Positions 16,866 to 56,317 are shown, numbered from the stretch's first letter. The stretch is 64,000 bases of DNA from Bigelowiella natans CCMP2755 (GCA_000320545.1 ADNK01000002.1:1-64000); one strand, 5' to 3'. Notes: a model not told the origin generated them from the sequence alone. Numbers and translations: made by a program.

Positions 16866-17223
16866 TTTTAGCGGACTAGCGGTAGCTGTTTGGCTTTTGT
16901 GCGCGGGACTGTGCTGTTGATGTTGGAAAGTCAACACGCGGTCTCGTGTGCTTTTGGATTCTGATGATGACTTGTGACTTGCGCTGCACGCATGTGCGCA
17001 TTGGGTTCCGGCGCATTCGCGAAGATTCTCGAATCTTCCAGAATTCTCTCGAATTCTCTCGAGTGTTTCTGGAAGGTTCTCGAAGCTTCCGGAATGTTCT
17101 CGAAGATTCTGGAAGTTCTGAGAACTTCCATGCGCATGTGCGCAGCGCAGCGTGCAGCACGAGTGGACGTGCGCATGCTGCGACAGCTCCTTGATCGTGG
17201 GTGGCGCGGCCAGACCGCTGACA
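16866..17223 (-). repeat. Copia 3' LTR (358 bp)
   Basis: Matches 23592-23949 except for 5 substitutions in the terminal 27 bp. Confidence 0.95.
17016..17114. promoter_or_regulatory. Heat-shock element (nGAAn) arrays in the Copia LTR (second copy at 23742-23840)
   Basis: 6 in-register alternating TTC/GAA units at 17016-17043 and 10 units at 17067-17114. Confidence 0.75.
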
Positions 17224-18978
17224 CGCCCCCATGGACGTGGTGACCACGATCAGAGTGCTGATGTGCACGTGCCATTTCTGCCATGGTGACAGAACTTTTG
17301 CACGGTGCTGCACATGGACGCCATTCCCAAAGGTTTCGGAGTCCGAATGGTTGGCAATGTTTTGCCGACCAAACATCGCACCACCAGACGCCCAAAAACT
17401 CTGTGCAGAGGCACAAAATTCCCAGGCTTGCAACTGGGCAAGGTGCCATGGGCATGGTGCACTCCGAAATCGGCAGGAAAAATTCTTGCCTGACTGGGCA
17501 AGGTGCCACCATTTCGGTACGAACTGGGACTTGTCCAAAAAATTAATTTTTTTTGAACGACACCAGTGTGCTTCCAGAAAAGAATTTTTCTGCGACACTG
17601 GTGCACTTCCAGAAAAAATTCTGGAATCCCCTGGGCACTTCCAGAAAGATTCCAGAAAAATTCCGGAATGCCCTACGTTCGTCACCTGCACCCACATGCG
17701 GTGTTGACCAAGGCTCGGTAGGTAGGTAGACAGGTGGGTAGTGCAAGTAGTCCTTTCCTCCTTCTTCTTCTTCTTCTGTTTTTCGTCATCAGCAGTACGA
17801 GCAGCACGACCCTTCTGGTTTGATCGTTGCTGTTTGATGCCATCTCTGTCACTTACACTGTCACTACTGCTGCTGCTGTTTGCGTTGTGATGGCTACGGC
17901 GGTCTACTTTGAAGGGTTGTTTCTGATGCCCATGAAAGTTCCAGAAAGATTCCAGATTGTTGCTGCGTTTTTGTGAGACTAAGCTAATACTAGCTGTTTC
18001 GTTAGTGATATGACGAGGAAGGGGGGGTGGAGGAGCCCCCTCAAAGCTTTGTTGAGGGACCGCTGCTCTTGCCTGGTCCCGAACGTTCGACCCCAAGTAT
18101 GCTTCGCCCTGTAGGCGCGATTTTGTCTCATAAGGTGCGGCCAATTTCGATCTATCGGTGTCCTTGCCATGATAACCTTTTGTGCCAGAACCCTCATTGT
18201 GATAGATTCCCCTTCTGCCTGCTTCCATGAAGGGGGGAGCGAGGATTCTCTTACCGGAAAGCTATAACGACGGTTATTGAATTATTTATATAATAATGAG
18301 TCATCACTGAGCACCATAAGGGGCGCTAACTTCCTCATAATGAATATTCACCGCTTCGACCGGCCTGGATCTGTGATAGCCATTTCTCTGCGTAACTATT
18401 TGGTTGTCTTTGTGAATAGGCCCTCCTTGGTAGTCATGCTGTGGACGATCCGTTAACCCTGTATGGAGACTCAAGTTCACGTGCCTTAGAAATCGCTATA
18501 TTACCCATGCTGCTTTGTTGCGGTCTCTGCATTTCTTTATTGTGGCCATTGTACATAGGAGCCACAGCAGATGCCTCGCCACTTCCAATATAATACCGAT
18601 AATTGTGTGGATCTCCAGGCGATCGTTTTTCCTTTTGTTAACTTCGTAGGTATCTTGTAGTATACAGCTTTTGCATGTTCTCTCCTTATATTTGACTTCG
18701 TATTTGTTATACACTAGGTATCTCGTCTTCATTATTATATCCGCCCCCATGATTGTGCAGTGTCTGGAAGACACTGTGCAATCATATAGAAATCTATAGC
18801 GTATTCTACATTCGCCCCCATGATAGCGAGAGTGTCTGGAAGACACTGTGCATATAGTCCATAGCAAGATACGCAAGGAAAGGTACACACATACAAAGAT
18901 GTGTGCCATTAAAACCTTGCAGCCTATATGTTTATATGTTGTAGGTTTCTAAATGGACGTGGGGCTTTCATAGGGCGA

Positions 18979-21900
18979 CTAAGCGGACGTGGGGCCGACA
19001 AGGCGAGGGAGCTTGTAAGGTAGAGTCTTTGTAGTTATTTTTCTTTTTCTGGTGCCTTGTAGCATGATGGTTAGTTTTTCTCTGTATGATATAGGGAACA
19101 AGAAATCACAGTGTTTCTTGTTGCTAGGTCCTGGTAGAGCCTTAGTAAGTATATCAGCGGGATTGTCCTCCCCAGGTATTTTGTTTATGCAGATCTGCTT
19201 AGTTTGATAGTTATCACGAACATTGTGATATTCTATCCTTATGTTCTTGCCTTTTTGTGTGAATCCAGGCTTGGCTGCAATGGAGATAGCTGCTTGAGAG
19301 TCACAATACACAGGTACAGGTTTCGGTATCTTCATCTTTAACTCCTGTAGTAACTGAGTGACATACACTAACTCTCTGCATATATCTGATAGTGCTATGT
19401 ACTCAGCCTCGCCACTGGACATAGCAACGACCTTTTGCTTGTTGCTCTTCCAGACAACAGGTGCGTTGCTTAGCGATATGAAATATCCTGAGTATGATTT
19501 ACCCGTTTTCTTGCAGGTTTTCCAGGAGGCATCGACGTAAGCTTTAAGCTCAGGTTTGGACGCTGCTTTAAAGGTAATTCTTTTATCCTTTGTATTGACC
19601 AGATACTGCAGTAAGCGTACTGCAGCGATGTAGTGTATAGTTCTAGGATCTTGACTGTAGGAAGCTAGACGAGATAGAGTGTAGCATATGTCTGGTCTAG
19701 TAGCCACAGCTGCATACATTGCAGCTCCTATGATGGATCTGTATGCCTTTTGATCCACCTTATCATGCTCCTCGTATTCGTCTAACTTCGATCCTGTTAT
19801 CATTGGTGTTTTTGCTCTTTTCGTAGGCGTGATATCATACTTCTGGGCGAGTCTGGTGAGGTAGTCTTCCTGCGATATCCAATAGTTTCCCTCATTGTCG
19901 CTACCAACTCTTATGCCCAGTGTTTTCTTTAGCTCGCCTTCATCGCGAAACTCAAACTTGTCGCCTATTCGCTTCATGACAAAGTCCAGGTCTCTCTTAT
20001 CTTGATATGCTATGCATATGTCATCCACGAAACATGACAATATGATGATTCTTCCTTGTCTGTGCATTATCATTAGGCAAGGATCGGAATAAAGCTGGAC
20101 GAAGCCAATGGCGTTGAGATGCTCGAGCAAGGTAAGGCTGAATATTGCACTTGCTTGTGTCAGCCCATAAATGCTTTTATTTACCAGTAGGGCTAGTGGA
20201 AGGCCACTGTTGTATAGCCGGATTTCATCAGGTGTCTTCGGCTTCCACCCTTTAGGTATTTCCATGTATACTTTACAGTCCATCTTTCCAGTTAGGAAAG
20301 CTGTAAGTATATCTATCCCGTGTAGTTTTAGCTTGAGGATAGATGCTATGGCTAACATTATCCGAAAACTATTTAGGGACAACGTCGGGGAATAAGAGAA
20401 GAAGAAGTCTTCTCCCGGGATCTGCGTGAACCCTCGCGCGACCAGCCTTGACTTATACCGAATGGTATAGTCTACATTTATTTTCTTCTTGAATACCCAT
20501 TTAGATGTAACGAAATTTGTATCCTTAGGTCGCACTACCAGCGTAAACGTTCCAAGTTTTCGAAGCTGGTGCAGTTCCTCTTCCGTAGAAGGTATCCAAT
20601 GCTTCTTATCATCTCCTGTGATTGCATCGTCATACGTCTTAGGAAGGTCCTCGATCTCTTGTACTGATGGAGCTTTTATGTTCATCAGGCGGTCGTAATA
20701 GCTACCAAGTATTCCGTAACGAATACCAGGTACTCCCCTATTTTCTCTATTCGACCTTCGAGGCTTACTTTTTGCTTTTGTTTCAGGCCCACCATCCTCT
20801 GGCAACTCGTCAGTTGCACTGGATGGTTCGGGGGCGTCCGCGTCGGCAGGACCTTCTGGATAAAGGTACGCCAAAGCCGAATCACTAACTTTGTTTCTCT
20901 TCAGCGAAGGAAACTTAAACACTGTGTGGTACCATTTAGTTACACGGACTCTTTTAATTTTCAGCGTCTTCGTGGCGACGAGAAAAGTACCAAATCTATC
21001 GTCATATCCCAACATACGTACGTATTCACCTCTAGCACCCATACCACCTGCAGGTCGGAGTTCCTTGTCAATGTGGTTTACTCCGATGCATCCCCAGGTA
21101 GTTAGATTCTTTAGATTTGGTTGCTCATGGTGCAGTAGTTCTTTAGGCGTTTTTCTACCAGGTGTGCTGCGATGTGAGGTGACGTTGTGGAGATATGCTG
21201 CAGTCTGAGCTGCGTAGGACCAGTATCCGACCGGTAAGCGTGCATGTTCTAACATAGCTCTTGTTTTCGCCATGATAGTCTGTATGTGACGCTCGGACAT
21301 TCCATTTTGCTCAGGTGTTCGGGCGGTGCTAGGAACCCATTTTATTCCTTCGGAGGTGAGCCAGCTATGTAGCTTTGCGCTCATATATTCACCTCCACCA
21401 TCCGATCTGAATTCGTCTATGCTTCCACAACCTGGAAGCTTTCTGATGTGCTTTAGGAACTGTATGGTTTTCTGCGTAACTTCGCTTTTCTTTCTCATGA
21501 GCTCCAAGGTAACCCACCTTGTTCCTTCATGTACGAATATTACGAAATACTTGTAACCATCCATGCTGTTAGGCATGGTCTTTACATCAGAGTGAATTCT
21601 ATTCCACATCCGGTTTTTCTTGTGGATATCAGGTACACATTTTTGCTTCTTTTTGACAGCATCGTCCTCAATCTTTGCTTTATTCCGATGCTGTTTCATC
21701 CTTTCTTGGGCGCTTGGATCAAAGATCGGAGATCTTTTTGTTTTGGCTACATCACAGGCCTTGCAAAAGATCTTCTTTGGTATTTTTATCGTCTTGGAAT
21801 AAGGTAAACCTTCTGTAACTGCATAGGTGTCTCTTATCTTATCCGCTGCGATGTGCCCTAGGATGTTATGTGCGTGCTTGATTGAAGATGGCTGTTTCAT

Positions 21901-23421
21901 TGGGTAGGATTTAAATCTTTGTGTTTTTGTACTTTTGTTTATTTGTTTATATCTCAAATAAAATAGGCCGTCGTCTTGAAAGTCCCCGAACGCGTATTCC
22001 TCTCCGTTGGCGGTAATGCTTATTCCTTGTTTTGTTCCTTTGTACTCGCTGCCACTCTTAACTAGTCTGTTTAGAGAAATCACATTGCCTGCAGCTTCTT
22101 CAGAGTACAAAGCTCCTTGTAGAACAATTTTGTGCATCTTTCCTTGCTTGTTTTTTGTAGTTAGTTTGACGTCGCCTGCATAATTCACAAAGAATCCTGT
22201 CCCATCTTTGCCAACTTCTATGTATCGTGGTTGAATAGGTTTCAACTCGTTGAAGAAGTCGCGGTCGCAGAAGAAGTGGTTGTTGGCTCCGCTGTCGAGA
22301 AGGATCAAAGGCTTATGGTTGTACTTCAGCGTTTGCAGGTAAGAATTGTCGCGTGCCATCTTATTAATGTAAGAGGGTCTTTGGGAAGGGGAGCCATGAT
22401 CAATAAAAGAATAGTGTTTTCCTTTGTTCTGCTTGCCTTCATCTCTCATCTTGTTTCTGCATTCCTTTTCCCAATGTCCTTTCTTGCCACAGTAATGGCA
22501 TTTTGTTCTTTTCTTTAAGTTCAAGAAATAGTCTTCTCTCTTTTGCTTCTTGGAATTGTCTTGATATGCTTCGCTGTTGTATCTGTTCTTTCCCTTTTTG
22601 AATTTCCTCTTGTAGGTCTTCAGCTGACCTGTAAGTTCGTTTAGCCTTTTCTCCAAGCCATCGTACATCTTCACGTATTTGTGTTCTGCACTGGTGTGTC
22701 CTGCATGTTTCTTTGAAGGTCTCTGCCCGTCATCTAATGATCGGGAGTTTATGTGGGAGCGGATCATGTCCACTGCAGAGTCGAAGGTAACATCTTTCTT
22801 GTTGTTGATGACTGTAACTATAGTCTCGTATTTTTCGCTAGGTACAAGTCCTCGAAGTAGAGTGGCAAGCGCTTGGTTGTCGGAGTACCCTTCGTGCTGT
22901 GCCCGAAGTCTTCTGATCGTCGAGTCAAGGTCAGAATGATACTTTGTGAAGTCTCCATTGTACTGACCCATGTTTATATCACTTAGTTTCGAATAAAGTT
23001 TCCTGACGGCTACAGGATTGGTAGGCTCGTACTTCTCCAGCAAGGCTGCTAAGGTAACTGCTACGTCTTTGGGTTTTCCTTCGAGTAGATCGAAGAATTT
23101 ATCAGGAAGGGTAGCAGTGAGGAAGAATCTTCCTCTCTTTCTTTTGTTTATCTTTTCTTGTGATCCTCTTCCTTCAGGTTTGGGATTGAGGATATCGAAT
23201 TGCTCCGGGGATAGCTTGAGTACTTCTCGTCGGTGAGCGGGGTCGGTGCGTACATTGACTTCTGTCACCTTTCCTTCTATTTCTATGTTGACATTGAAGC
23301 ATGATTCCAAATCCGCTGCTTCAAAGGCAGACATTAGCTTGTACATGTAGGGCTTGTAGTTGCTACCATCGTACTTGAGGGTGAAGTTTTTCAGCAGGGA
23401 GTCTATCTGCTTTTCTGACAT
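18979..23421 (-). CDS. Copia gag-pol polyprotein (1480 aa)
   Basis: Zn knuckle CHYCGKKGHWEKEC; protease LLDSGA; integrase H..H..CKAC, IHSD, RSDGGGEY, PEQNGMSER; RT KSRLVARGF, SIYGLTQA, FVDD; RNase H YVDASW, NPADILTK. IN-before-RT order defines Copia. Confidence 0.98.
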   Translation of the reverse strand: MSEKQIDSLLKNFTLKYDGSNYKPYMYKLMSAFEAADLESCFNVNIEIEGKVTEVNVRTDPAHRREVLKLSPEQFDILNPKPEGRGSQEKINKRKRGRFFLTATLPDKFFDLLEGKPKDVAVTLAALLEKYEPTNPVAVRKLYSKLSDINMGQYNGDFTKYHSDLDSTIRRLRAQHEGYSDNQALATLLRGLVPSEKYETIVTVINNKKDVTFDSAVDMIRSHINSRSLDDGQRPSKKHAGHTSAEHKYVKMYDGLEKRLNELTGQLKTYKRKFKKGKNRYNSEAYQDNSKKQKREDYFLNLKKRTKCHYCGKKGHWEKECRNKMRDEGKQNKGKHYSFIDHGSPSQRPSYINKMARDNSYLQTLKYNHKPLILLDSGANNHFFCDRDFFNELKPIQPRYIEVGKDGTGFFVNYAGDVKLTTKNKQGKMHKIVLQGALYSEEAAGNVISLNRLVKSGSEYKGTKQGISITANGEEYAFGDFQDDGLFYLRYKQINKSTKTQRFKSYPMKQPSSIKHAHNILGHIAADKIRDTYAVTEGLPYSKTIKIPKKIFCKACDVAKTKRSPIFDPSAQERMKQHRNKAKIEDDAVKKKQKCVPDIHKKNRMWNRIHSDVKTMPNSMDGYKYFVIFVHEGTRWVTLELMRKKSEVTQKTIQFLKHIRKLPGCGSIDEFRSDGGGEYMSAKLHSWLTSEGIKWVPSTARTPEQNGMSERHIQTIMAKTRAMLEHARLPVGYWSYAAQTAAYLHNVTSHRSTPGRKTPKELLHHEQPNLKNLTTWGCIGVNHIDKELRPAGGMGARGEYVRMLGYDDRFGTFLVATKTLKIKRVRVTKWYHTVFKFPSLKRNKVSDSALAYLYPEGPADADAPEPSSATDELPEDGGPETKAKSKPRRSNRENRGVPGIRYGILGSYYDRLMNIKAPSVQEIEDLPKTYDDAITGDDKKHWIPSTEEELHQLRKLGTFTLVVRPKDTNFVTSKWVFKKKINVDYTIRYKSRLVARGFTQIPGEDFFFSYSPTLSLNSFRIMLAIASILKLKLHGIDILTAFLTGKMDCKVYMEIPKGWKPKTPDEIRLYNSGLPLALLVNKSIYGLTQASAIFSLTLLEHLNAIGFVQLYSDPCLMIMHRQGRIIILSCFVDDICIAYQDKRDLDFVMKRIGDKFEFRDEGELKKTLGIRVGSDNEGNYWISQEDYLTRLAQKYDITPTKRAKTPMITGSKLDEYEEHDKVDQKAYRSIIGAAMYAAVATRPDICYTLSRLASYSQDPRTIHYIAAVRLLQYLVNTKDKRITFKAASKPELKAYVDASWKTCKKTGKSYSGYFISLSNAPVVWKSNKQKVVAMSSGEAEYIALSDICRELVYVTQLLQELKMKIPKPVPVYCDSQAAISIAAKPGFTQKGKNIRIEYHNVRDNYQTKQICINKIPGEDNPADILTKALPGPSNKKHCDFLFPISYREKLTIMLQGTRKRKITTKTLPYKLPRLVGPTSA

Positions 23422-23580
23422 GTTGTTTCGTTCCTGTTTTCTTTGTTTTCAGTGCTTTGGAGGCTTGACCGAAGATTGGCTGAGGGAATGCTGTTGTCGC
23501 TTTCAGTTCCTTCTTCTGGAAGGATGTAGCTGAAGGGGGGGGGTGGGGGGTTTGCTTGGTTCTTTTGCAAGTCCTCTTGA

Positions 23581-23591
23581 GGCTCATAACC
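23581..23591 (-). promoter_or_regulatory. Primer-binding site, half-tRNA-iMet type
   Basis: Minus strand GGTTATGAGCC directly after the 5' LTR resembles the GGTTATGGGCCC PBS of Drosophila copia. Confidence 0.8.
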
Positions 23592-23949
23592 TTTTAGAGG
23601 GCTTGCGGTAGCTGCTTAGCTTTTGTGCGCGGGACTGTGCTGTTGATGTTGGAAAGTCAACACGCGGTCTCGTGTGCTTTTGGATTCTGATGATGACTTG
23701 TGACTTGCGCTGCACGCATGTGCGCATTGGGTTCCGGCGCATTCGCGAAGATTCTCGAATCTTCCAGAATTCTCTCGAATTCTCTCGAGTGTTTCTGGAA
23801 GGTTCTCGAAGCTTCCGGAATGTTCTCGAAGATTCTGGAAGTTCTGAGAACTTCCATGCGCATGTGCGCAGCGCAGCGTGCAGCACGAGTGGACGTGCGC
23901 ATGCTGCGACAGCTCCTTGATCGTGGGTGGCGCGGCCAGACCGCTGACA
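23592..23949 (-). repeat. Copia 5' LTR (358 bp)
   Basis: Minus strand begins TGTCAGCGG and ends CTAAAA, immediately followed by the PBS. Confidence 0.95.
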
Positions 23950-24179
23950 CCTAGTGCTATAACAACACCATCGAACTAGCTCAGCTCATACAGCATGAAA
24001 TTGAACCATCATCATGCATGCATCGATCTTGGCGGGTAGCACCCGTCTACCCGTTAACGGCGCCCATCTGGACATAGCTAGATAGTTAGATAAATGCTAG
24101 AGTGCTACACTACGTACACTAGTACACATTGAATGCAGCTTGCTGCACAGACATTGCTATCTAGCTAGCAAGCTATGCC

Positions 24180-26791: not shown

Positions 26792-27820
26792 TTAAGTTCT
26801 CGCGTTACATAGATTTGATCAATGTGTGATTTACATTGTGTGTAGAACACATCAAAAGGACTAACTATGTTTCCCTATCAATAAAACGTTGCGATGATGT
26901 CCAGCACGTAAATGCATCCAATGCATTTGTAGATTGACGCATGGTCTGCATCGCATCAGCACACAGAAACGAAATGTGTGAGTCTCCCTTTCTAGCTTTG
27001 AGCGCAATGAACTTGTTGGCATATTATGCATTGCGTGAAGTGCACGCACGTTTGCATGTATACGGTGTGAAAGGTGATCAGTGCGAGATGCGATGAATCG
27101 ATCACTCAGTGCTTGCATGCACGCCACTGAACCAGCATGCACGCGCGCGAAACCGCTGGTAGCAGTGGCGTGGCTTGCATCATTCACAGCGGCGGTGCAA
27201 ACAGCACGCAATCAACGCACATCCACGCGTGCTTGCGAAGCGCAATGGAATTATTGGACACAATACAGTGACATCATGTTCATGTCATGCCAGCATGTGT
27301 GGTACGGTGTTGCATGTCTGTGATGTTTCAATGAACAATGAACAATGAACAAAGCATTGATGCAAACACTGCATGAAAAAGAACCACATGGGAGACATGC
27401 ATGAACTGTGACAGCAGCACCTCATCAAAAATCATTGCGAGGAGGGAGCTGCGATGCCTTCCCTTCTCCAACAAAGGGGGCCAATCATCAAAAGCGGCAT
27501 TGGCCATTGCCGTGAGGGCGTTGGGCAGGGATGACTCTGCGACACGTTCACTGCACGATGCAGGCTCATGTCGTTAGCCTGCAATAATACTAGCAGCATT
27601 CTTGATCGTTGTATGTAGACATAGTAGCCATGGAAATGAAAATGTGAAATATGTTCAATACTGGCGCGTAGCACCGATCTCTCCCACTTCTGATTCTATC
27701 TCTGATCTGGGAATGGATAAGCTGGAGTAAAAGTTTTGGGGTAGTTGAGCGAAAACTTGTCCATATGTGCCTTAAGTATAGCAGACATAGGTAAAATATT
27801 TTTCACATCATACAGCATCT

Positions 27821-38035: not shown

Positions 38036-38069
<34 letters not shown>

Positions 38070-38108
38070 ATGTGTGTGTGTGTGCATGTGTGCATGTGTG
38101 TGTGTGTG

Positions 38109-38145
<37 letters not shown>

Positions 38146-38785
38146 GTGTGTTGTGTGTGTTGTGTGTGAACATGCAATCAAACACCACGATGCCAGCTCT
38201 GGAGGGTTGTGTGTTCCGGATCTGCACATGCATCTTGTGTGGTCAGCACACAGGCATGACTGCATGGCACACATCCTTCAAACCATCCTCCTTGCAGCTT
38301 CTCCTGATGTGACGCCATTCGTCCTTGGCAACCGAGAACGTTGCCTCAAGTTCTCCCCAAGGACATGTCTTCCCGTCCAGCCTCCTCGTCACATGTCCCC
38401 AACCGCACTTTGGCAGAGAAATCACACTGTCGTGTGCAACCACGACTCCGTTGTGTTCATGATGCACCCTCACATGACTCCCGTTCTTCAACACAAAATT
38501 CTCTGAATTTGACATGAGGGAAAGAGGGCAAGGAAGGTTGGTGTGGTGTGCTGGGGTTGGCCCCAATGAGCTCGTGTGAAAAAAAGTTGCGAGCGTCACC
38601 AGAGATTTCACGTCAATTTCGGCCAAAGAAATCCATGGATGTTCACACATGAAATTCGATTTTTCACAAGGAAATCTTCGTTTTTGGTTCAAATCCTGAA
38701 AAAAATTTCGGCTGCCGCCGAAATGAGGCACACCTTGAAAGTCCGCGCATCCCTGCCGGGATTCCCGGGGAGTGAGAAACCCTTG
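37488..38785. mobile_element. Non-autonomous hAT-type DNA transposon (~1.3 kb)
   Basis: ~45-bp TIRs CAAGGGTTTCTCACTCCCC(T/G)GGAATCCCGGCAGG(C/G)ATGCGCGGA; 8-bp TSD GCTGGCTA (37480-37487 and 38786-38793); no transposase. Confidence 0.88.
37984..38168. repeat. Interrupted (TG)n microsatellite inside the hAT element
   Basis: TG run with CA interruptions and no TA. Confidence 0.9.
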
Positions 38786-44029: not shown

Positions 44030-45110
44030 GAGCTGGATGCATGAGTTGTGCCCAACAGTGCACATCATTTGCCATTTGACACATCAACCTGGTGCTGAGG
44101 CCACCGCCATGCTTGCATGATGGACGTGTGATGCGCATCAGGACTAGAGAAGAGCACACACGCAGCACACACATTGCTGAAAGCATCGCCGCAGATTCTT
44201 GCAGTTGCAATGCCAGAATGTGCTGCAGCACTTTCATCTCATTTCTGGCACTTTGTGTGACACAGACTTTCTGCAACACTGTGGATTGTGTCGCTCCACA
44301 TCGCGTCGTGAATGAACGAACAAGCAATGCAAAATTCCAAGGCGCTGCAGCCAAACAAAGGTTGAACATTGTCCTTCATGTTGATGCTCCCATGTTCGCG
44401 CAAGTTTGACATGCATGCAGTCGACATGTGAGCGAGCATGGACTGAGGAAATTGGCAAATTGACTGTGCACGTTGTGGCAGGTGAAGCGGCACAGGTGCG
44501 ACAAGCATTGCCGTGACGCTTCAGCCTGCCGCGACAAGGAATGCACACGCATGTCGCGCGACAAGGCTGGTCCTTGTCGCGGCCTAGAAACCCAATGCAA
44601 TTGCATGTGACTGATGACAAGCTTGACATCTGTCAAGGGGCGGTCAAGCTCTTGCACGATGTCATCACAGTTCAACCTGAACACCGCTGCCCACTCGTTT
44701 GCCACCTTTTGCTCACTGCGCGCACATCGCACCGCACCCAGCCCCTCAATTGTGGACACGATCTCAATGCTTCACATCGGTGCTGCTCTGACTGCACGCA
44801 CACGCGAGAACCACGTGGGAGACAAGCGCTTCCATCACGTGCGTGCAGCAGCGCCTGCAAGCAAAAACTCTTTGCGCGAGGACTTCTGGAACTTCACAGC
44901 ATGACAACACCCTGCCAATGCTGATGTGTCATGATGGACACAGCAACAGCATGTCCATCATTGTTGCCAAAACTCAGCCAAGCAGAGTGATTGGTTTGAC
45001 GGAGCACGTGCACCAGCTGACAAGTGGAGCCATTGCGAATCGAAGAGGGACGCATTCAAGATTCAAGATTCGTGTTCGTTCGACCACTTGAAGTTCATCA
45101 AACAAACGTG
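44030..45110 (-). pseudogene. Decayed, hypermutated retroelement-like remnant
   Basis: Tyr-free, Cys/His-rich frames. Segment KEFLLAGAAA..KRLSPTWFSR (~44800-44880) resembles the sequence flanking the Gypsy insertion (46650-46680 and 52396 onward). Family not identified. Confidence 0.4.
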
Positions 45111-45129
45111 ATGACAGACTGGCCTGACT

Positions 45130-45710
45130 TGGGAACAATGAGAACAATGATGAAAAACTGCACTTTCAAAGTGTGACAAGACACTTGCAGTGTGTCGAAC
45201 TGGCTTCAGTGAGGACTGAAAACTGAGCCTCGAACTGACTTTGGTGGGCTGGTGAGAACTGACCAGTGAAACAAAAAGGAATGAAGAATGGCATCACTCC
45301 AGCCACTCCTCCTCCATTCCTAGCTTCATTGTCTTTTGTGCCTGATCTCGGGAACAATGAACAATGATGAACAATGAACAATGAACAATGATGACGAACC
45401 ACACTTCCAAAGTGTTGCAAGACGTTTGCAGTGATCGAAGTGCAGTGCCTCGAACTGGCTTCAGTGAGGACTGTGACCAGCAAATCAACTGGCTGGTTTT
45501 TCAAGTTGGCATGATTTGGTCATTGTGTTGCAATGACACTGTGAACAATGAACAATGATGACGAACTGCGTTCCAAAACGTTGCAAGACACTTGCAGTGA
45601 TCGAAATGCAGTGCCTCGAACTGGCTTCAGTGAGGACTGTGACTGGCGGCAAATCAACTGGCTGGTTTTTCAAGTTGGCATGATTTGGTCATTGTGTTGC
45701 AATGACACTG
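45130..45710. repeat. Diverged ~180-bp tandem repeat with AACAATG runs
   Basis: Units share CTTGCAGTG..TCGAACTGGCTTCAGTGAGGACTG and CAAATCAACTGGCTGGTTTTTCAAGTTGGC; partial copies at 52500-52600. Confidence 0.85.
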
Positions 45711-46560
45711 GCGGCAAAGTTCTGACGGCGCAAGACCTCCACTCTGAGCAAAAACTTCCTGAAGGCCATGTCCACACGACGATCTGCGTTTGGATCATCC
45801 GAGGGGGGCCCCAGCAAAACTTTGGTTTTGGCAGAGTCCGGAGCGTCAAAGAGTGAAGAGCAGAAGGAAGAATCTGGGCCCAGAGCCAATCTCATGCGCG
45901 AGAGAAGTTTGTTTCTCTCTGCATTCAAGTGAGTGCAATGATGGATGAGGTGGTTGACAGTTTGAACAACCTCAGCATTGCAAAGAGGACAAACTGAGGA
46001 AGAGGGGGGCAGGTTGCAAGTTTCAGCCCTGCGTTCTTCAGTTTCGCAAGTCCCAGCGCGGAGCCGGAGTTTGAGCAACACTCCTGAATTGTCATGCCAA
46101 TCATCGAGATGACACTCAAACAATCTGGAAGCTGGCCTTCCAATGTGGCTCTTCGCCCAGGCTCTGAGTTTGCAGATTGGGGTGTCGGGTTTGACGAACG
46201 AGCAAAAGCTGTGACACAAGTTGCCATTGGAGGACAGAGAGGCCCTGACTCTTCGGTGGAGGTCAAGATCAACCAATTTTGGATGGGTCTGGTCCAAGTT
46301 GACCAACACGTCAAAGCCACGGGCAGATTGGCCACAACCAGCAATGCGGTGAAGAATGGACCCAGTGTTGTGACCCCAACTTGAGCGCAGAGCGTCAGCC
46401 TGATCCAGAGAAAGGTGCAGTGGATCCTTTGTCATGAATTCATCAGGTTGCTGACGCATCCTGCTCAGGAGGCTCATGAGAGACTTGTCCCAACGGGCCT
46501 GCAGACCTTCCTGGCCACACTCAGACAATGGGAAGCACAGGGGTTGGCCATGGGCTCGAA
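45710..46560 (-). pseudogene. 3' part of a decayed non-LTR (LINE) ORF2
   Basis: Post-RT-like segment SECGQEGLQARWD..., KLRLRAG and CCHC finger CPLCNAEVVQTVNHLIHHC; no Tyr in 311 codons. Confidence 0.7.
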
Positions 46561-46680
46561 TTCTGATGAACAATGAACAATGAACAATGAACAATGATGA
46601 TGATGAACAATGAACAATGAACAATGAAGAAAGCGTTGATCAAAACCACGTGCGCCAGAACCACATGGGAGACAGGCATT

Positions 46681-47006
46681 TGTAGCGCGTACCACTACGC
46701 GGGCACAAGTCACGTGCGACAACAAAGGGGTTGTCGCGGATATAGAATATAGATAACGTAGATATTAATACAGCATAGGCACGTGGGTTCCGGCGGGACT
46801 CATGGCAGCACACCGGAAGTGTGCTGCCCCACGTGCGGCGGCATTCGCGAAAGCTTCGCGAATGATTACGCAGTGCACGATTTAATAAAAATATAATCTT
46901 TAATAAAAATAAACACAACTCTTCAAAAGGAAGCAAACGTGCCTTTCCCCCCCCCTGCCTACTTGTGCACGTAGCGCCTCGGCCTGTGAACACCTTACGC
47001 GCAACA
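46681..47006 (+). repeat. Gypsy 5' LTR
   Basis: TGTAGCGCG...CGCGCAACA; identical to 52070-52395 by eye. Confidence 0.95.
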
Positions 47007-47045
47007 ACCTTTGGCTTCCACACACGGGAAACGATTTGACTAACA

Positions 47046-48227
47046 ATGTCACAGCAGCTAGAAGAACAGCAGGACTTTGGCTCGCAGGCCGTGCAAGGGC
47101 ACGAGCAGAAACAGGAAAGGAAGGGCGATACGGACGCTAAGGAAGGAGGAGGAACACCTCCACAGGCACCGCCGGGACCAGCACCCGGGATTAAGAAAGC
47201 AGATGCAGCAGCAGAGGCACTGGAGAACTTCTACGAGGCGGACGACGAGGACGTGGCCGCCGAAAGCAAGAAGGTCGTAATGGCATTACGAGCCTTGCGA
47301 CCCAGGGCGAGCAACTACGCCAAACTGAAAGTATCGATAGAATACAAGTATCAGACACATGATGTTTGGGCAGCTATCATGCAGGACATCATGGATTACG
47401 AAGCAGACTTACCTCCAGAGTGGGCAGCTTTGTTTAGGAACGACGGGGGTCTGGGCGCCTCGCGGGGGACGACCCAGAGCACCGTCAAGCAGCAGCAGCC
47501 GGTACAGCGGAACACCCAGTTCATGTCTGTTAAAACAGCACCGGTTATGATAACGAAATACAACGGGAAAAGAGGTGAGGCAAGGAGGTGGTGGAAGAAC
47601 GCTAGGAGTATACTCTGCGACTTTACCCCTAACCCCACCGAAAACGACAAGCTCAAATGGCTAGCTATAATAAAGCAAGCCATGGACCTTTACGAGACAG
47701 GCAGGACCCGGATCAGGCAGCTAGAGAAAATACACACTACAGTTAGTGGGCTACGAGACGTTGAGGCGATAATGAAGGCTTTTGTAAATGAACAGGATGC
47801 TAACTCCCTACCCCAGGCTATTAGAAAATACAGAGCAATGATGCAGCATGAGAGAGAACCTGTTAGAGACTTTGCCACGCGCTTCCAGGATATGATCGAC
47901 GAACTACATGATTTTAATTACAACACAGGTGATGATCAGGCAAGGTTTGAAGAGTTCAAGTTAAAGATAAAGGAATCCACTTACGTTACGGAGAAAGGCT
48001 ACACCACGATGGAGGCAGCAGTGCAGGCTATATCCCTACGCGAGCAGGAGCAGGACCGCAAGTTTACCAGCCCTAAGGTACCTGGCATAGGAAACATTAA
48101 CGCTATTAAGCCGCAGCGAGACTGGTACAAGGACAGGGAAGGTAACCGACGTTGCGGATACTGCTCACGTAAAGGGAAACACACCGCTAAGACTGCAGAG
48201 ACAGGAAAGAAGGACGACCCAGGATGA
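47046..48227 (+). CDS. gag: Gypsy Gag
   Basis: Capsid-like MHR-type segment QHEREPVRDFATRF; partial Zn knuckle CGYC..H near the end. Confidence 0.85.
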   Translation: MSQQLEEQQDFGSQAVQGHEQKQERKGDTDAKEGGGTPPQAPPGPAPGIKKADAAAEALENFYEADDEDVAAESKKVVMALRALRPRASNYAKLKVSIEYKYQTHDVWAAIMQDIMDYEADLPPEWAALFRNDGGLGASRGTTQSTVKQQQPVQRNTQFMSVKTAPVMITKYNGKRGEARRWWKNARSILCDFTPNPTENDKLKWLAIIKQAMDLYETGRTRIRQLEKIHTTVSGLRDVEAIMKAFVNEQDANSLPQAIRKYRAMMQHEREPVRDFATRFQDMIDELHDFNYNTGDDQARFEEFKLKIKESTYVTEKGYTTMEAAVQAISLREQEQDRKFTSPKVPGIGNINAIKPQRDWYKDREGNRRCGYCSRKGKHTAKTAETGKKDDPG

Positions 48228-51200
48228 CGATCAGGCAGCTCAACGAACACTACGAGAAGTTAAAGAGAAAGAAAGGCAGAGGACAAGGATATAACAACAG
48301 CAAATGGCAAGGCAGCAACAACGGGAAGAACAATAAATATAAGAACAAAAAGCAGAACAGTATCAATGCTATACAGCAGCAGATAAACGGAATATTAGAT
48401 CACCTTAAGCAGGCGCCGACGAAGACAGCAGTACCAGCAACGCAGGACCAAGACAAGCCCATGACCCTAGACGACATAAAGAACTTAGGAGTATGCAACA
48501 TTAATGACGAAGACGCTAACAGGACTATCAAAGTTGCTATGACCAAGGTTAAAGTTAAAGACAGCTACGGAGACTACAAGAAACTACCTGCCCTTTGGGA
48601 TAGTGGCAGCATGCCGAAGTCCTTCATAAGCCTAAGCACAGTAAGAAGGTTAGGACTATTGGATCAAGTGACTAAGAAAGAACGTAAATATGCTCAAGCA
48701 GACGGAAGCTCTTCCATGAAGACCGTCGGTGAGCTAATGCTAAAGCTACAGATACCTGGCAGCGACGCGGAGACCCAAATCAAGACCCGAGTAGCCATGA
48801 CTTTATCCATGGAACTACTCCTCGGACAGGATGCCCTAGAAAAATTAGGGGGGATCATATCATTCTACAATCACAAGATATACTTTGCTAAGTTGCCAAA
48901 GAAGTCAGGCAGGACCATCAGCCAGAACATGATACGGCTTGACGAGTGGACCTCTGAGTCAAGCGTTAATGCGTTAGAGTTTATGGACCTAGCGGACAAC
49001 AAGCTACCTACACCTACCGAGCTACGGAAGAAGAACCCCGGCAAGACCATCCGACAGATAACGGAGCTACTGGACAAGACCCCCCCAGCTGATGATTGGG
49101 ATATCGACAAAGGCAAAAAGTACATTAATAAAATATTAAACGAGAAGTACTCTGACATCACCAAGCCGACGACGAAGCCCTCCAGCAAGCTTACCCCAGT
49201 AAAGATCGAGCTAAAGAAGGGATACGAAGAGTGCATCATCAATGACCCAGAACATAGGCGACCGGAAGCGGACTGGGAAAAGATAGAGTGGCAGATCAAT
49301 GAATGGGCAAAGGAAGGGAAGATAGAGCCAAGCAACTCACCATGGAACGTGAGACATGTGCTAGCTAAGAAACCTACTTACCCTTTCTTCCGCCTGGCGC
49401 ACAACTTCATCCGCCACAACCGAGTAATAAAGAGGATCCAGACACCTACACCAAGGATAGATGACGTTATTGAACACGTCATAGGATACAAATACTACTC
49501 TTCCCTAGATAAAAATGAATCATACATGCAGACACCCATCCACAAAACCTCCCGCCCCATTACCGCGTTCTCCAGCAGGCACAGGAAGTGGCACTTCGTC
49601 GTATTCCCTTACGGCCTAAGCATATCAGGGGATGCGTTCAGTAGTCAGAACTACAGGGCATACACACATGATGGGATGGCGTCTGTGTTGTGGGTGTTTG
49701 TGTTTGTGTATGTGGATGATGACATAATATGTACCAACACAGTCGTCGCTCAGATCTTCCTCCTGGAAAATATATTTATTAGGTTTGCACACTTCGGTTT
49801 TACTATTAGACTGCAGAAGTGTACATTCCTAGCTACAAGAATCAAGTGGTGTGGATATTACCTGGAGCAAGGCCGCATCACCCCAAACCCCGAGAAAGTA
49901 GCAGCACTACAGCAAGCCCCTAAACCTAAGAATGCAAAGGAGTTAAAGTCATTCTTGCAGACTGCAGCTTGGATACTACGTAGGTTCTCCCCTACCTACG
50001 CTAGGACTGCAGCTGCTTTTACTACTGCTTACCGGAAGGAGAACTCTGTAGGCCTCAGCTTCGCTAAGGTGTGGGCCAAGGCTGGCCTTGATGCCCACTT
50101 CGATAACCTAATAAAGTTATGCAGCAACACCCTATTGAATGCTAAGCTAGACACTACTAGACCAGCTACCCTATGGACAGACTGGTCTAAGCTAGGTATG
50201 GCTGCTGTACTTACCCAAGACCAGCAGATCATACGGGTGTGGGGCAGGGCCTGCACAGCAGCTGAGGCCAAGTACAGCCCTACAAAAGGAGAGTATAAAG
50301 CCATGACTGAGGCGCAGAGGAAACTAAGATACTACCTGCTGTCGGTGCCCAGCTTCACCTTAATGACTGACCACAAGCCCCTCCTAGGCATCGACCGCAA
50401 GCTCGAAGCGCCTAACGATGAGTATGCAGCTATGAGGGCGGACACGGAAGAGTTTAGGGACAAGAGGACAGTGGTCTACGCACCAGGAGACAAGCAGCTT
50501 GCTGACTATTTCAGCAGGCTGTTCGAAAAGAAAGTCCCTACCCAGGTCACCCCTAGGGTTAACGCGATTACCTTCGAGGACGGCGACTTCCTGCCTGAGC
50601 CAGAGGAGCTCCAGCACCTTCAAGAACACCTGGATAAATACAAACACAAGCATGAGGTACTTAGTGATAGGATATATGTATACACTAATAATGTTAGGCG
50701 TACCTACGTGCCACGGCGGACCAGGGGAGCCCTTCTCTTTACCGCCCATGGACCTGCACACGTAGGAGAAAACCATATCACTGCTCTACTCTACCATTAC
50801 TACTGGCCCTACAAGCTAAAAGAGATAAGGACATACCTGCGTGGCTGCAGGTGCTCCAGCTTGAAGGCGGCAGGCGTCGCCACCAAGGAGTCCAGCAAGA
50901 GCCGTGCATCTAAGAAAATCAAAGCAAGGAACTTCTTAGATATCGTGCAAATTGATGTTTATAAGTACGATGGCTATCACTACCTTACCTTCGTTGATGT
51001 GGCCACTGGAAAGTGCTGGGTTAAAAAGATTATCAAGGTCAACGTTGCTAAGAAGAACAAAGGCTTATATAAGCAGAGGCTTACTAACTGCTACCGTACC
51101 TGGGAGTCTGAGCTCCAGGCTATCCCTGATGAAGTTAGCATAAACAAGATACCAAAGAAGTTACATGTGGATAATGAGACCTCTCTTCTACAGCTACCAC

Positions 51201-52018
51201 ACCCTAATATTGATGCCTCACCTGTATACTATGCCCAGTCCAACTCCAAGGTAGAGCGACTCCACCGCACCTTGGCCAACCTAAGCAGGATAAATAGCAC
51301 CACACCAGACAAGATACAAGGGTTAGTAAACGACACCTTCACGTCTGGGGGAGGTATCAAGGATAAGGAGAGGGAAGAAGGCGACGACAACGACGACGAT
51401 ACCGAGAGCGAAGACGAGAAGGTCCCGTACGATGGCCGAGTTCTAAAGGAAGGACAGTATGTTAGGGCCAAGGTAAATCTGAGATCGAGAAATAAACAAG
51501 ACCCCTTCTGGGGTGGCGTTGCAAAGGTTACCGAGAGGAAGGGGAGGAAGCAGTACTACATCTATGATGGGAACAGGGTCACCTTGCGCCACATCAGTCA
51601 CCTAAAGAATTATGATATCGGTGAGAAGCTCCTAGAGGATGTTAAAGTAAACCCTACTGTGTGGGAGCGAGCAATGCCTTGTTTAGGACCCCGACCTAAG
51701 TTCGATGTGGAATATGGAAACAATAAGGTCAGGGTGAACGACGATTGGCGCATGAAGATTGTCTATCTAGGCTACCCTGGATTACGAAATATGGAGAGGG
51801 TAGCTATGAAAATAAAGGACGGAAAATATCAGCTACTCTACCTAGCTGTTCCCGACTTACCCTTTGAGCACTGGTATAAGGTCCTGGGGGACCTTGATGC
51901 AGAGGGCTGGTATGGACACGAACCTAAGGACGAAGGTGAGTTCTGGGTAAGCGACAAAGGAGATAAGGTTAGAGAGGAATCTATTACCTGGTGGTTGGTG
52001 AAGTTCCGAAAGCGATGA
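48191..52018 (+). CDS. pol: Gypsy Pol (PR-RT-RNase H-IN plus extra C-terminal domain)
   Basis: ALWDSGS; SPWN; FPYGL; YVDD; LWTDWS; TDHKPL; integrase IVQID..VDNE..SNSKVERLHRT. The frame opens at 48191 after a TAA; first ATG is at 48224. Confidence 0.95.
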   Translation, partial: DCRDRKEGRPRMTIRQLNEHYEKLKRKKGRGQGYNNSKWQGSNNGKNNKYKNKKQNSINAIQQQINGILDHLKQAPTKTAVPATQDQDKPMTLDDIKNLGVCNINDEDANRTIKVAMTKVKVKDSYGDYKKLPALWDSGSMPKSFISLSTVRRLGLLDQVTKKERKYAQADGSSSMKTVGELMLKLQIPGSDAETQIKTRVAMTLSMELLLGQDALEKLGGIISFYNHKIYFAKLPKKSGRTISQNMIRLDEWTSESSVNALEFMDLADNKLPTPTELRKKNPGKTIRQITELLDKTPPADDWDIDKGKKYINKILNEKYSDITKPTTKPSSKLTPVKIELKKGYEECIINDPEHRRPEADWEKIEWQINEWAKEGKIEPSNSPWNVRHVLAKKPTYPFFRLAHNFIRHNRVIKRIQTPTPRIDDVIEHVIGYKYYSSLDKNESYMQTPIHKTSRPITAFSSRHRKWHFVVFPYGLSISGDAFSSQNYRAYTHDGMASVLWVFVFVYVDDDIICTNTVVAQIFLLENIFIRFAHFGFTIRLQKCTFLATRIKWCGYYLEQGRITPNPEKVAALQQAPKPKNAKELKSFLQTAAWILRRFSPTYARTAAAFTTAYRKENSVGLSFAKVWAKAGLDAHFDNLIKLCSNTLLNAKLDTTRPATLWTDWSKLGMAAVLTQDQQIIRVWGRACTAAEAKYSPTKGEYKAMTEAQRKLRYYLLSVPSFTLMTDHKPLLGIDRKLEAPNDEYAAMRADTEEFRDKRTVVYAPGDKQLADYFSRLFEKKVPTQVTPRVNAITFEDGDFLPEPEELQHLQEHLDKYKHKHEVLSDRIYVYTNNVRRTYVPRRTRGALLFTAHGPAHVGENHITALLYHYYWPYKLKEIRTYLRGCRCSSLKAAGVATKESSKSRASKKIKARNFLDIVQIDVYKYDGYHYLTFVDVATGKCWVKKIIKVNVAKKNKGLYKQRLTNCYRTWESELQAIPDEVSINKIPKKLHVDNETSLLQLPHPNIDASPVYYAQSNSKVERLHRTLANLSRINSTTPDKIQGLVNDTFTSGGGIKDKEREEGDDNDDDTESEDEKVPYDGRVLKEGQYVRAKVNLRSRNKQDPFWGGVAKVTERKGRKQYYIYDGNRVTLRHISHLKNYDIGEKLLEDVKVNPTVWERAMPCLGPRPKFDVEYGNNKVRVNDDWRMKIVYLGYPGLRNMERVAMKIKDGKYQLLYLAVPDLPFEHWYKVLGDLDAEGWYGHEPKDEGEFWVSDKGDKVREESITWWLVKFRKR

Positions 52019-52069
52019 AGGTCTAAGGGAATAAGGAAGGAAGGAAGGAGCAACGTGACTTGGGGGAGG

Positions 52070-52395
52070 TGTAGCGCGTACCACTACGCGGGCACAAGTC
52101 ACGTGCGACAACAAAGGGGTTGTCGCGGATATAGAATATAGATAACGTAGATATTAATACAGCATAGGCACGTGGGTTCCGGCGGGACTCATGGCAGCAC
52201 ACCGGAAGTGTGCTGCCCCACGTGCGGCGGCATTCGCGAAAGCTTCGCGAATGATTACGCAGTGCACGATTTAATAAAAATATAATCTTTAATAAAAATA
52301 AACACAACTCTTCAAAAGGAAGCAAACGTGCCTTTCCCCCCCCCTGCCTACTTGTGCACGTAGCGCCTCGGCCTGTGAACACCTTACGCGCAACA
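52070..52395 (+). repeat. Gypsy 3' LTR
   Basis: Follows the PPT; identical to the 5' LTR by eye. Confidence 0.95.
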
Positions 52396-52838
52396 CATTT
52401 GCACGCAGCAGAGCCTCAACAACACTCGTTGCAAGGACTTGTCAGCACCCTGTTGGTGAGAGACACAAAAAATCAGCCGCATCCCATGAAATTGGCATGA
52501 AACAATGAAACAATGAAACAATGATGAAAAACTACATTTCCAAAGTTTTGCAAGACACTGGCATGGATGATGATGAACTGCGTTTCCAAAATGTCGGAAT
52601 GTGAGTGACTTGTGAATCTGAAACAGATTCATGGAGCTCAAGAATGCGACATGAATGTGTGAATGACGCACAACACAATTGGGGTCCTGTTTGTGAATCG
52701 ATTCATGGAGCTTAAGAATGCGACATGAATGTGTGCCTGACGCACATCACAATTGGACTGATGTTTACCACTACGACTCATTTGAGCCCGGTGAAGGAAG
52801 AAGGGTAGTTACATAAGACTCGAAACCTCCATTCTCCC

Positions 52839-54760: not shown

Positions 54761-56317
54761 TCAGTTGGTATTCCTCATGAAGCCTTTCTTATGAACGTTT
54801 GTAGTGGAATGCTGTTTTTTTCCCATCGGCTTACTCTTCTTCCCTCTTACAGTTGGAGTATGAGAGCTACCTCCGACAGTTACTCTCATTATCCATGAGT
54901 CAAGAGTATCAGAAGCAAGTTTGAATGCAGAAGGGCTTGCCCGCAAAATGTTCTCTGCCGTCTCAGCACCTACCCTTTTCTCTAACTCGCTTCGCACGTG
55001 CATGACTCTATCAGATGATACCCTGAGCATGCCGGGGGATCGTTCTATGACTGCAAGTGCGTGTGATTCAGACCCTAAGGCTTCTGCCAATGCATCATAA
55101 GCATCCATTGCAGTTTTACTAGGAGCTTTAAGGACGGTTGGATTTTTCTTTATCAGTTCCTCTGCTTTATTCTCCCCAAACAGCTTCTTCAAGACCTTCC
55201 AGGATCCTACCATTGTATCTTTGGGTGAGTTAAGCACCCCTGGAGACTGTCGCACCACTTCAAACGAAGATTGTTCCCCAAGAATTTCAACGAGATTATC
55301 CCATGCTCCCTTCACCGTATAGCCAGGGGCACGGAGAAGATCAGGGTTATTTTGCACTGCTCTCAAAGCTTCAGAATGTCCCAAGACATTTTCAAGCACT
55401 TCCCATGCTCCTTGAACAGTATCTCTAGGAGCTTTCAACACTGCTGGGTTTTTCACAACTAATGCAACCGCAACTTCAGGGCCGAAGAGAACCTGCAGTG
55501 CCTCTAATGAGCCTGTCATTGTAGGCCCTGGAGCTGAAAGAACGTTGGGGCATCTTTCACATAATTCAATGGCATCCTCAGCGCCCACCAATGTCTCTAA
55601 CTTTTCCCATGCTCCCCTTATAGTTGGTTCTGCTACTTTAAGGAGAGAAGGGCTCTTGCGTATGAGTGAGGTTGCTTTTTCTCTCCCAACAAATTCAACT
55701 AGAGCATCAAAAGATTTGACCATCGTCGATTCAGGTGATGTTAGTACAACACTGGTACGAGTGACAAGCTGCAGAGCGTCGTCTTCTCCAAATAAAGATT
55801 TGATTACATGCCAAGCACCAGATAGAGTTGTGAGAGGTGTGGCCAGCACTCCAGGTCTTTTTATGAGGATATCCTTGGCCTTTTCAGATCCTACAAGATC
55901 TTCCAAAAACTTGAATGATGAGCGAGCACACAATTCTGGTGCTTTAAAGACACCCGGACTGCGTGACATGACTTTTATGGCGTTCGATAGGCCAACCTGC
56001 TCAACGACAAACTCCCATGTACCTGTAGCGGTACAATTCGCAATTGGACGAAGGCATCCTGTAGGAGTCATAAGTAACTTCGTTGCTTTGCTTGCAGAAA
56101 GTTGCTGCATCATGAGATCCTGGATAGTTCTTCTGGGTTTTTGAAACTGACTATTACCATTATCTGAAAGTTGATGATGATGTCCTCGCACTGCAAGCTC
56201 TCTCCAAGTATCCTTCATAAACACTAACGAATCTGTACCCTCACATACAGACTGGTCATTGAAGTACAAACTGTTTCTATGAAGATGACTAATGTGAAAT
56301 CTTCTCGAAAACGGCAA
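54761..56317 (-). CDS. mTERF-like helical repeat protein, probably organelle-targeted (true start upstream)
   Basis: About 11 repeats of ~34 aa of the form GAW..L..LxG.E.A..LV...P.VL.AP..T, resembling mTERF repeats. Confidence 0.7.
   Translation of the reverse strand: MPFSRRFHISHLHRNSLYFNDQSVCEGTDSLVFMKDTWRELAVRGHHHQLSDNGNSQFQKPRRTIQDLMMQQLSASKATKLLMTPTGCLRPIANCTATGTWEFVVEQVGLSNAIKVMSRSPGVFKAPELCARSSFKFLEDLVGSEKAKDILIKRPGVLATPLTTLSGAWHVIKSLFGEDDALQLVTRTSVVLTSPESTMVKSFDALVEFVGREKATSLIRKSPSLLKVAEPTIRGAWEKLETLVGAEDAIELCERCPNVLSAPGPTMTGSLEALQVLFGPEVAVALVVKNPAVLKAPRDTVQGAWEVLENVLGHSEALRAVQNNPDLLRAPGYTVKGAWDNLVEILGEQSSFEVVRQSPGVLNSPKDTMVGSWKVLKKLFGENKAEELIKKNPTVLKAPSKTAMDAYDALAEALGSESHALAVIERSPGMLRVSSDRVMHVRSELEKRVGAETAENILRASPSAFKLASDTLDSWIMRVTVGGSSHTPTVRGKKSKPMGKKQHSTTNVHKKGFMRNTN

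What the first reader, a model, noticed from the sequence alone, without database searches (positions are those of the whole stretch)
45150..52720. Paralogous copies show one TA resolved to both TG and CA
Seen: at one homologous position of the repeat after ATGA(A/C/T)(A/G)AAC, copies read TA (52533-34), TG (45159-60, 45567-68, 52579-80) and CA (45400-01). A tandem pair reads GAGCTCAAGAATG (CA at 52639) versus GAGCTTAAGAATG (TA at 52713). Inference: an ancestral TA gives TG or CA by one transition on either strand. The alternative, CG decay, needs two steps to reach TA and conflicts with the retained CpG. The TA-retaining copies sit near the domain edge.
Basis: partly seen in the sequence, partly recalled or inferred. 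Interest (0 to 1): 0.7.

Follow-up and report, generated by a model that had tools for sequence, protein, structure and literature searches.

The report
TA-erased retrotransposons in an alga
Old retrotransposon copies in this stretch of Bigelowiella-type algal DNA have lost almost every TA step to TG or CA, while a young element inserted among them has kept its TA steps; this is likely the long-term scar of the TA-specific hypermutation already reported for viral inserts in Bigelowiella natans.

Summary
All seven cited dinucleotides are confirmed. The DNA is Bigelowiella natans or a very close relative. The repeat is the 3' end of a decayed LINE in a 3-kb island holding 5 TA where about 190 are expected; a young Gypsy element with identical LTRs and normal TA content splits the island. 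A metagenome homolog has TA at 9 sites where a window copy has CA (5) or TG (4). Dead relatives of the window's intact Gypsy and Copia lost 35 of 35 tyrosines (16 to Cys, 16 to His); transitions hit 88/226 TpA opportunities against 1/116 CpG. The process itself is known: a 2026 bioRxiv preprint measured TpA to TpG/CpA hypermutation in viral inserts of B. natans and only suggested transposons as targets. Added here: polarised evidence for LINE, Gypsy and Copia, and a weaker second target, ApT (19/180 vs 18/608). CpG is also somewhat depleted, and the edge claim is weak. The enzyme is untested. The scan noted the same pattern earlier in diatom-like DNA.

The parts
44030..46680 (.). Left part of the TA-free island (decayed repeats; 3 TA in 2651 bases)
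45692..46558 (-). Remnant of the C-terminal end of a LINE (endonuclease-RT non-LTR retrotransposon) ORF2 with a CCHC zinc knuckle; no Tyr in 289 codons
45128..45712 (-).
   Evidence: the 3' end reading is inferred from position behind the ORF and from homolog P0148
46566..46680 (-). Tail and end of a further repeat copy, interrupted by the Gypsy insertion
   Evidence: loose ends in run X15 run from 46677/46682 into the right-flank sequence
46681..52395 (+). Young Gypsy-type LTR retrotransposon: identical 326-base LTRs (46681-47006, 52070-52395), 4-base target duplication CATT, ORFs 47046-48227 and 48224-52018; TA content normal (349 internal, o/e 1.05)
52396..52765 (.). Right part of the same island; holds sites 52533 (TA) and 52579 (TG)
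52626..52766 (.). Tandem pair, period 74, CA at 52639 against TA at 52713; single-copy depth
37488..38785 (.). Second TA-free island: element with terminal inverted repeats and an 8-base target duplication; 1 TA in 1298 bases
16866..23950 (-). Copia element with intact, TA-normal ORF (18979-23421) and nearly TA-free LTRs; used as the second reference for polarity
27303..27574 (.). Small TA-free island, homologous to 46608-46679

Best explanation
The island is made of old retrotransposon DNA in which TA steps were converted to TG or CA by A-to-G change on either strand, likely by the same host hypermutation process that was measured in viral inserts of Bigelowiella natans and probably through deamination of adenine in silenced chromatin. 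Shown: island, nested unmutated Gypsy, direction and strand symmetry of the change in three retrotransposon families. Inferred: each copy is hit after insertion, site by site, so sister copies end up TG or CA at one column; the process runs close to completion and so wrecks reading frames; young copies have not yet been hit. Inferred with less support: targeting follows a chromatin domain rather than sequence pairing, because TA loss reaches single-copy-depth DNA and passes element ends. Untested: the enzyme (an ADAT2/TadA-like deaminase is the published candidate; I put adenine deamination at about 0.55).
For: Host: CTP synthase 97% and Gypsy Pol up to 100% identical to JGI Bigna1 models. Island 5 TA against about 190 expected, TG+CA o/e 1.7-1.9, nested Gypsy o/e 1.05. 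Homolog L001 has TA at 9 sites in 60 aligned bases; the window copy at 45450 reads CA at 5 and TG at 4, six of them outside the search pattern, and the one CG is shared. The YLD motif has Tyr in 12 of 13 distant LINE homologs aligned and His in the window. LINE homologs that still contain Tyr differ from the window by 14 TA-only against 4 CG-only changes. Six paired TG/CA swaps are among the 29 island rows shown, and at two of them more contigs carry the TA-making half. Dead Gypsy (P0129, P0139) and Copia (P0222, P0224) copies: 0 of 35 Tyr kept, 16 Cys, 16 His, 3 other; TpA 88/226, CpG 1/116, other G 10/594; the ceiling is about half because each TA offers two exclusive edits. Same spectrum measured de novo in B. 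natans (10.64898/2026.01.13.699255).
Against: In the LINE remnant CG-compatible differences are as many as TA-compatible ones by distinct codon (13 vs 12), and 10 vs 7 against Tyr-free paralogs; CpG o/e is 0.6 in the island, so CpG decay or further A-to-G change also acts. ApT is hit above background (19/180 vs 18/608), whereas the preprint found its de novo changes on TpA only. The dead copies are only about three independent loci (P0129 and P0139 share several changes; P0222 and P0224 are neighbouring gene models) and were read as protein, not DNA. Only 40 of 431 difference rows were visible. The Gypsy family is at very high depth and 20 of 22 Pol hits are unmutated, so the process is slow, patchy or evaded. 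No rate, chromatin or enzyme data here.
Confidence: 0.85

Rival explanations
1. Methyl-CpG decay: ancestral CG became TG or CA, and the rare TA are second hits.
For: CpG o/e is 0.59-0.61 in the island against 0.80-0.85 in the flanks; 13 distinct LINE codons differ in a CG-compatible way; a TG/CA swap alone fits CG as well as TA.
Against: It would not remove TA (o/e 0.02). In dead Gypsy and Copia copies 1/116 CpG opportunities were hit against 88/226 TpA. L001 shows TA, not CG, at all 9 sites. Tyr to Cys/His cannot come from CG.
Confidence: 0.04
2. Reverse polarity: TG/CA is ancestral and the TA-bearing copies arose by fungal-type RIP (C to T at CA/TG).
For: RIP links the same three dinucleotides (recalled); L001 against one window copy cannot be oriented by itself.
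Against: The TA-rich Gypsy and Copia have long open frames with Pfam RT domains; the TA-free ones carry Leu-to-Pro and Tyr-to-His/Cys changes. A conserved Tyr is lost in the LINE. TG in one copy and CA in another at one column needs TA in between.
Confidence: 0.02
3. Same direction, different chemistry: an error-prone repair polymerase of the polymerase-eta type makes A-to-G changes at TA in silenced DNA, with no deaminase.
For: Polymerase eta favours A-to-G at WA with TA above AA (recalled); it would act on both strands. Nothing here identifies an enzyme.
Against: A after A is not raised: 2/85 and 2/30 in the two Gypsy Pol comparisons against 31/79 and 8/31 for A after T. The second-ranked context is ApT, not AA.
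Confidence: 0.2
4. Erasure happened once in a master element and TA-free copies then multiplied, so the differences among window copies are inherited, not local.
For: The Copia has two near-identical TA-free LTRs around a TA-normal ORF. P0129 and P0139 share several changes. At 52533-34 no other letter reached 15% of a very high summed depth, so that TA may be inherited from a common master, not spared by the edge.
Against: Sister copies resolve one column to TG or CA; single-copy-depth DNA and a local tandem pair are also TA-poor; TA loss passes the ends of the TIR element. This rival changes the timing, not the mutation type.
Confidence: 0.15

Closest known systems
TpA hypermutation of integrated NCLDV and virophage DNA in Bigelowiella natans (Mettrop et al., bioRxiv 10.64898/2026.01.13.699255)
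   Same: [quoted passage not shown] The preprint reports 124 such clusters and RT, endonuclease-RT and DDE domains enriched in TpA-depleted genes.
   Different: Targets here are a LINE, a Gypsy and a Copia family, which the preprint names only as potential targets (its main text has no 'LTR', 'paralog' or 'copies'). Here the end state is near-complete and polarised by paralogs; a weaker ApT class appears; no rate is measured.
Repeat-induced point mutation (RIP) of fungi (features recalled)
   Same: Works like it: dinucleotide-specific, both-strand transition hypermutation that ruins transposon reading frames.
   Different: Opposite direction (RIP makes TA from CA/TG by C to T). Dependence on pairing of repeats is not shown here, and the preprint's viral target is single-copy.
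Methyl-CpG decay in silenced repeats (recalled)
   Same: A palindromic dinucleotide decays to TG or CA on either strand.
   Different: The starting dinucleotide is TA and the change is A/T to G/C, so GC content rises (0.51 in the island against 0.38-0.42 in flanks).

Membership tests
B. natans TpA hypermutation (Mettrop et al. 2026) | Occurs in B. natans nuclear DNA | tested here: met
   Window proteins 97-100% identical to JGI Bigna1 models; strain not determined
B. natans TpA hypermutation (Mettrop et al. 2026) | A-to-G / T-to-C transitions concentrated on TpA, both strands | tested here: met
   88/226 TpA vs 18/608 other A and 1/116 CpG; Tyr to Cys 16, to His 16
B. natans TpA hypermutation (Mettrop et al. 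2026) | Strictly TpA only | tested here: inconclusive
   ApT 19/180 lies above other A (P 1.5e-4), but the data are protein-level, long-term and from about three loci
B. natans TpA hypermutation (Mettrop et al. 2026) | Confined to local regions of foreign or selfish DNA | tested here: met
   Islands at TA o/e 0.00-0.09 on LINE, TIR-element and LTR DNA; flanks 0.80-0.82. Retrotransposons, not NCLDV or virophage
B. natans TpA hypermutation (Mettrop et al. 2026) | De novo rate about 1000-fold above background | not testable with these tools
   Needs line-specific raw reads; only contigs were available
Fungal RIP | C-to-T transitions, TA gained | tested here: not met
   G-to-A/C-to-T hits 11/710 in dead copies; TA is lost
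Fungal RIP | Triggered by pairing of repeated sequence | tested here: inconclusive
   Single-copy-depth stretches are also TA-poor, but they may be repeats decayed below 80% identity
Fungal RIP | Needs a RID-type methyltransferase in the sexual cycle | not testable with these tools
   No genome held
Methyl-CpG decay | CG is the ancestral state of TG/CA columns | tested here: not met
   TA in L001 at 9 of 9 sites; 1/116 CpG hits; a minor share possible
LINE (APE-RT non-LTR retrotransposon) | ORF2 with endonuclease and RT, C-terminal CCHC knuckle | tested here: met
   Only the C-terminal part is in the window; it aligns to the ends of 1118-1225 aa proteins with RVT_1 (3 of 3) and Exo_endo_phos_2 (2 of 3)
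LINE (APE-RT non-LTR retrotransposon) | Clade assignment by RT phylogeny | not tested
   No RT remnant identified in the island
Gypsy-type LTR retrotransposon | TG..CA LTRs, target duplication, RT followed by RNase H | tested here: met
Gypsy-type LTR retrotransposon | Integrase downstream of RNase H | tested here: inconclusive
   No integrase family reached E 0.001; about 540 residues follow the RNase H match

The most novel reading that the evidence does not exclude
Bigelowiella runs a general mirror-image RIP: an adenine-editing genome defence that erases TA, and more weakly AT, across whole silenced domains holding LINE, Gypsy, Copia and DNA transposons, spreads past element ends, and is steered by RNA such as the multi-intron antisense transcript seen over the young Gypsy.
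Probability: 0.3. Interest if true: 0.75.

Novelty: new member of a known kind. Interest (0 to 1): 0.45.

Why it matters
The preprint measured the process in two viral inserts and left transposons as a suggestion. Polarised dead copies of three retrotransposon families make it a general defence against selfish DNA and show that it runs nearly to completion. A high-copy Gypsy family with both intact and erased copies gives a ready assay for timing, targeting and the enzyme. A natural DNA adenine editor would be of mechanistic and applied interest. In practice, erased elements lose TAA and TAG stops and were annotated as Tyr-free genes (P0139, P0143, P0222), and they would distort age estimates of repeats.

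Tried and rejected
The repeat finder was swamped by microsatellites; a BLAST self-comparison replaced it. Pfam on 12 frames from TA-free DNA gave no hit above a curated cut-off, only a weak zf-RVT at E 0.06. The repeat-end pattern found nothing in viral contigs, nor did P0129. The one metagenome match could by my estimate be chance from the degenerate pattern alone; it counts only because the 36 bases beyond the pattern align. A three-state column using L001 and both window copies depended on gap placement and was dropped. Assembly error was rejected for the right-hand sites. RNA editing was rejected: three of four dead copies are genome gene models, and sense-strand T-to-C changes are as common as A-to-G. 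Genome-wide TA scarcity was rejected: flanks are at 0.80-0.82. A link of the ApT class to 6mA could not be checked; PMC12695648 has no 'Bigelowiella', 'chlorarachni', 'Rhizaria' or 'Amorphochlora' in its main text. The spliced antisense RNA gave no long frame (longest 154 codons) from 15 of 132 joints.

Full report
Observation. All seven dinucleotides stand at the stated places. The copies align at that column, the 52570 copy only over a short core. Contigs from runs X2 and X6 cover 52517-52790 without a differing letter.

Setting. The window is eukaryotic. Its CTP synthase is 97% identical to a JGI Bigna1 model, and its Gypsy Pol is up to 100% identical to several: Bigelowiella natans or a very close relative. 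Between them lies a Gypsy-type element, 46681-52395, with identical 326-base LTRs, a CATT target duplication, RT and RNase H domains and normal TA content (o/e 1.05). Contigs of run X15 continue from the insertion point into the right-flank sequence, so the two blocks are one island split by a later insertion.

What the repeat is. The minus-strand frame 45692-46558 found 71 proteins at E up to 0.001. It aligns to the C-terminal ends of 1118-1225 aa proteins that carry RT (3 of 3 scanned) and AP-endonuclease domains (2 of 3). It is a LINE ORF2 remnant.

Direction. Four other lines fix it. (1) The one metagenome match, L001, aligns over 60 bases with the copy at 45450; all 9 of its TA are CA (5) or TG (4) in the window, six of them beyond the search pattern, with 3 other mismatches and the single CG shared. 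(2) Of 19 LINE hits aligned (of 71), 13 are distant homologs; 12 of these have Tyr in the YLD motif where the window has His. Among 14 close homologs, the 8 that contain Tyr differ from the window by 14 TA-only and 4 CG-only changes; the 6 Tyr-free ones by 7 and 10. (3) Among the 40 difference rows shown of 431, 29 lie in the island and 12 of these form six paired TG/CA swaps; at 45887-88 and 45934-35 more contigs carry the TA-making half than the CG-making half. (4) Of 22 Gypsy Pol hits, 20 are nearly identical to the window and 2 are Tyr-free; of 14 close Copia hits analysed (of 41), 2 are diverged in the same way. Against the window's intact frames these four proteins kept 0 of 35 Tyr (16 Cys, 16 His, 2 Arg, 1 Phe). 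Single-transition amino-acid changes hit 88/226 TpA opportunities, 19/180 ApT, 18/608 other A, 1/116 CpG and 10/594 other G. Each TA offers two exclusive edits, so 39% is close to the ceiling. Columns near gaps or under 55% local identity were dropped before counting.

Against. CpG is reduced in the island (0.59-0.61), and CG-compatible codon differences in the LINE number 13 against 12 TA-compatible, so a second process adds some noise. The dead copies are about three loci and were read as protein. The edge claim is weak (3 of 5 surviving TA within 250 bases of an edge, P 0.035, edges defined by TA). At 52533-34 no other letter reached 15% of a summed depth of 10,758 in X2, against 6.75 on single-copy DNA. 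This suggests that TA is the common state among similar copies and was inherited, not spared by position; the tool's handling of short contigs limits this reading.

Mechanism. Best reading: a host process changes A to G in TpA on either strand of silenced repeat DNA, site by site after insertion, until almost none is left. Domain-level targeting is inferred from TA loss in stretches at single-copy depth and about 650 and 250 bases beyond the ends of a TIR element; these flanks could be older repeats. B. natans has one heterochromatin state, H3K9me3 with H3K27me3, on transposons and repressed genes (10.1101/2025.03.17.643675, passages only). Adenine deamination is the published hypothesis and is untested here. 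A polymerase-eta-type mutator is the main chemical rival, but A after A is not raised (2/85 and 2/30; the eta preference is recalled).

Relation to print. Mettrop et al. (10.64898/2026.01.13.699255; parts 1-4 of 5 of the main text read) found 231 of 302 new mutations in two viral inserts, nearly all A/T to G/C and on TpA, listed 124 TpA-poor clusters, saw RT and DDE domains enriched in TpA-poor genes, and named transposons as potential targets. Its supplements were not seen; its tables of genes and clusters may include this locus. Six paper searches showed no other report of TA-directed erasure of retrotransposons in their listings. PMC12695648 was checked by term search only. RIP, CpG decay and polymerase eta features are recalled. 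Earlier scan notes report the same pattern in diatom-like genomes; I did not test them.

Verdict. Real and correctly interpreted in direction. It works like a mirror image of RIP but is not RIP. It belongs to a process already described in this species, extended here to LINE, Gypsy and Copia targets, with a tentative second context. Interest 0.45.

Noticed in passing
window 47324-50213, run X19: Contigs of this run join at least 15 splice joints across the Gypsy gag-pol (15 shown of 132); 14 read GT..AG on the minus strand. This is a multi-intron antisense RNA over a retrotransposon, with no long frame in a partial reconstruction.
   Followed up: partly
window 48188: The three runs covering this place carry one more base than the window, so this copy's gag and pol frames are split by a 1-base difference from other copies (mutation or assembly error).
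   Followed up: no
window 16866-23950: Copia with nearly TA-free LTRs and 3' non-coding end around a TA-normal intact ORF; the five LTR mismatches cluster in about 28 bases at one end. It suggests a recombinant or an element that stayed mobile after partial erasure.
   Followed up: partly
window 37488-38785: TIR element with an 8-base target duplication that keeps its TA on both sides; the internal TG/CATG run at 37990-38168 looks like an erased (TA)n tract; TA loss extends into both flanks.
   Followed up: partly
window 46681-52395: Summed contig depth over the Gypsy is several hundred times single-copy depth in runs X2 and X11 but only about 9-15 in X15, which points to very different copy numbers between isolates (depth is not a copy number).
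   Followed up: no
window 2171-2246, 6709-6781, 16681-16754: Three copies of a short repeat with partial TA loss; several columns differ as TA against TG or CA. Possibly an early stage of erasure; not counted.
   Followed up: partly
proteins P0176, P0178, P0196: More distant LINE homologs with no Tyr, which may be erased copies of other families or from other organisms.
   Followed up: no
L001 1-780 against 780-1051: The metagenome contig has a TA-poor left part and a very TA-rich right part that holds the homolog.
   Followed up: no
window 3900-6062 and 54761-56317: Host genes: an intronless CTP synthase and an mTERF-family protein.
   Followed up: no
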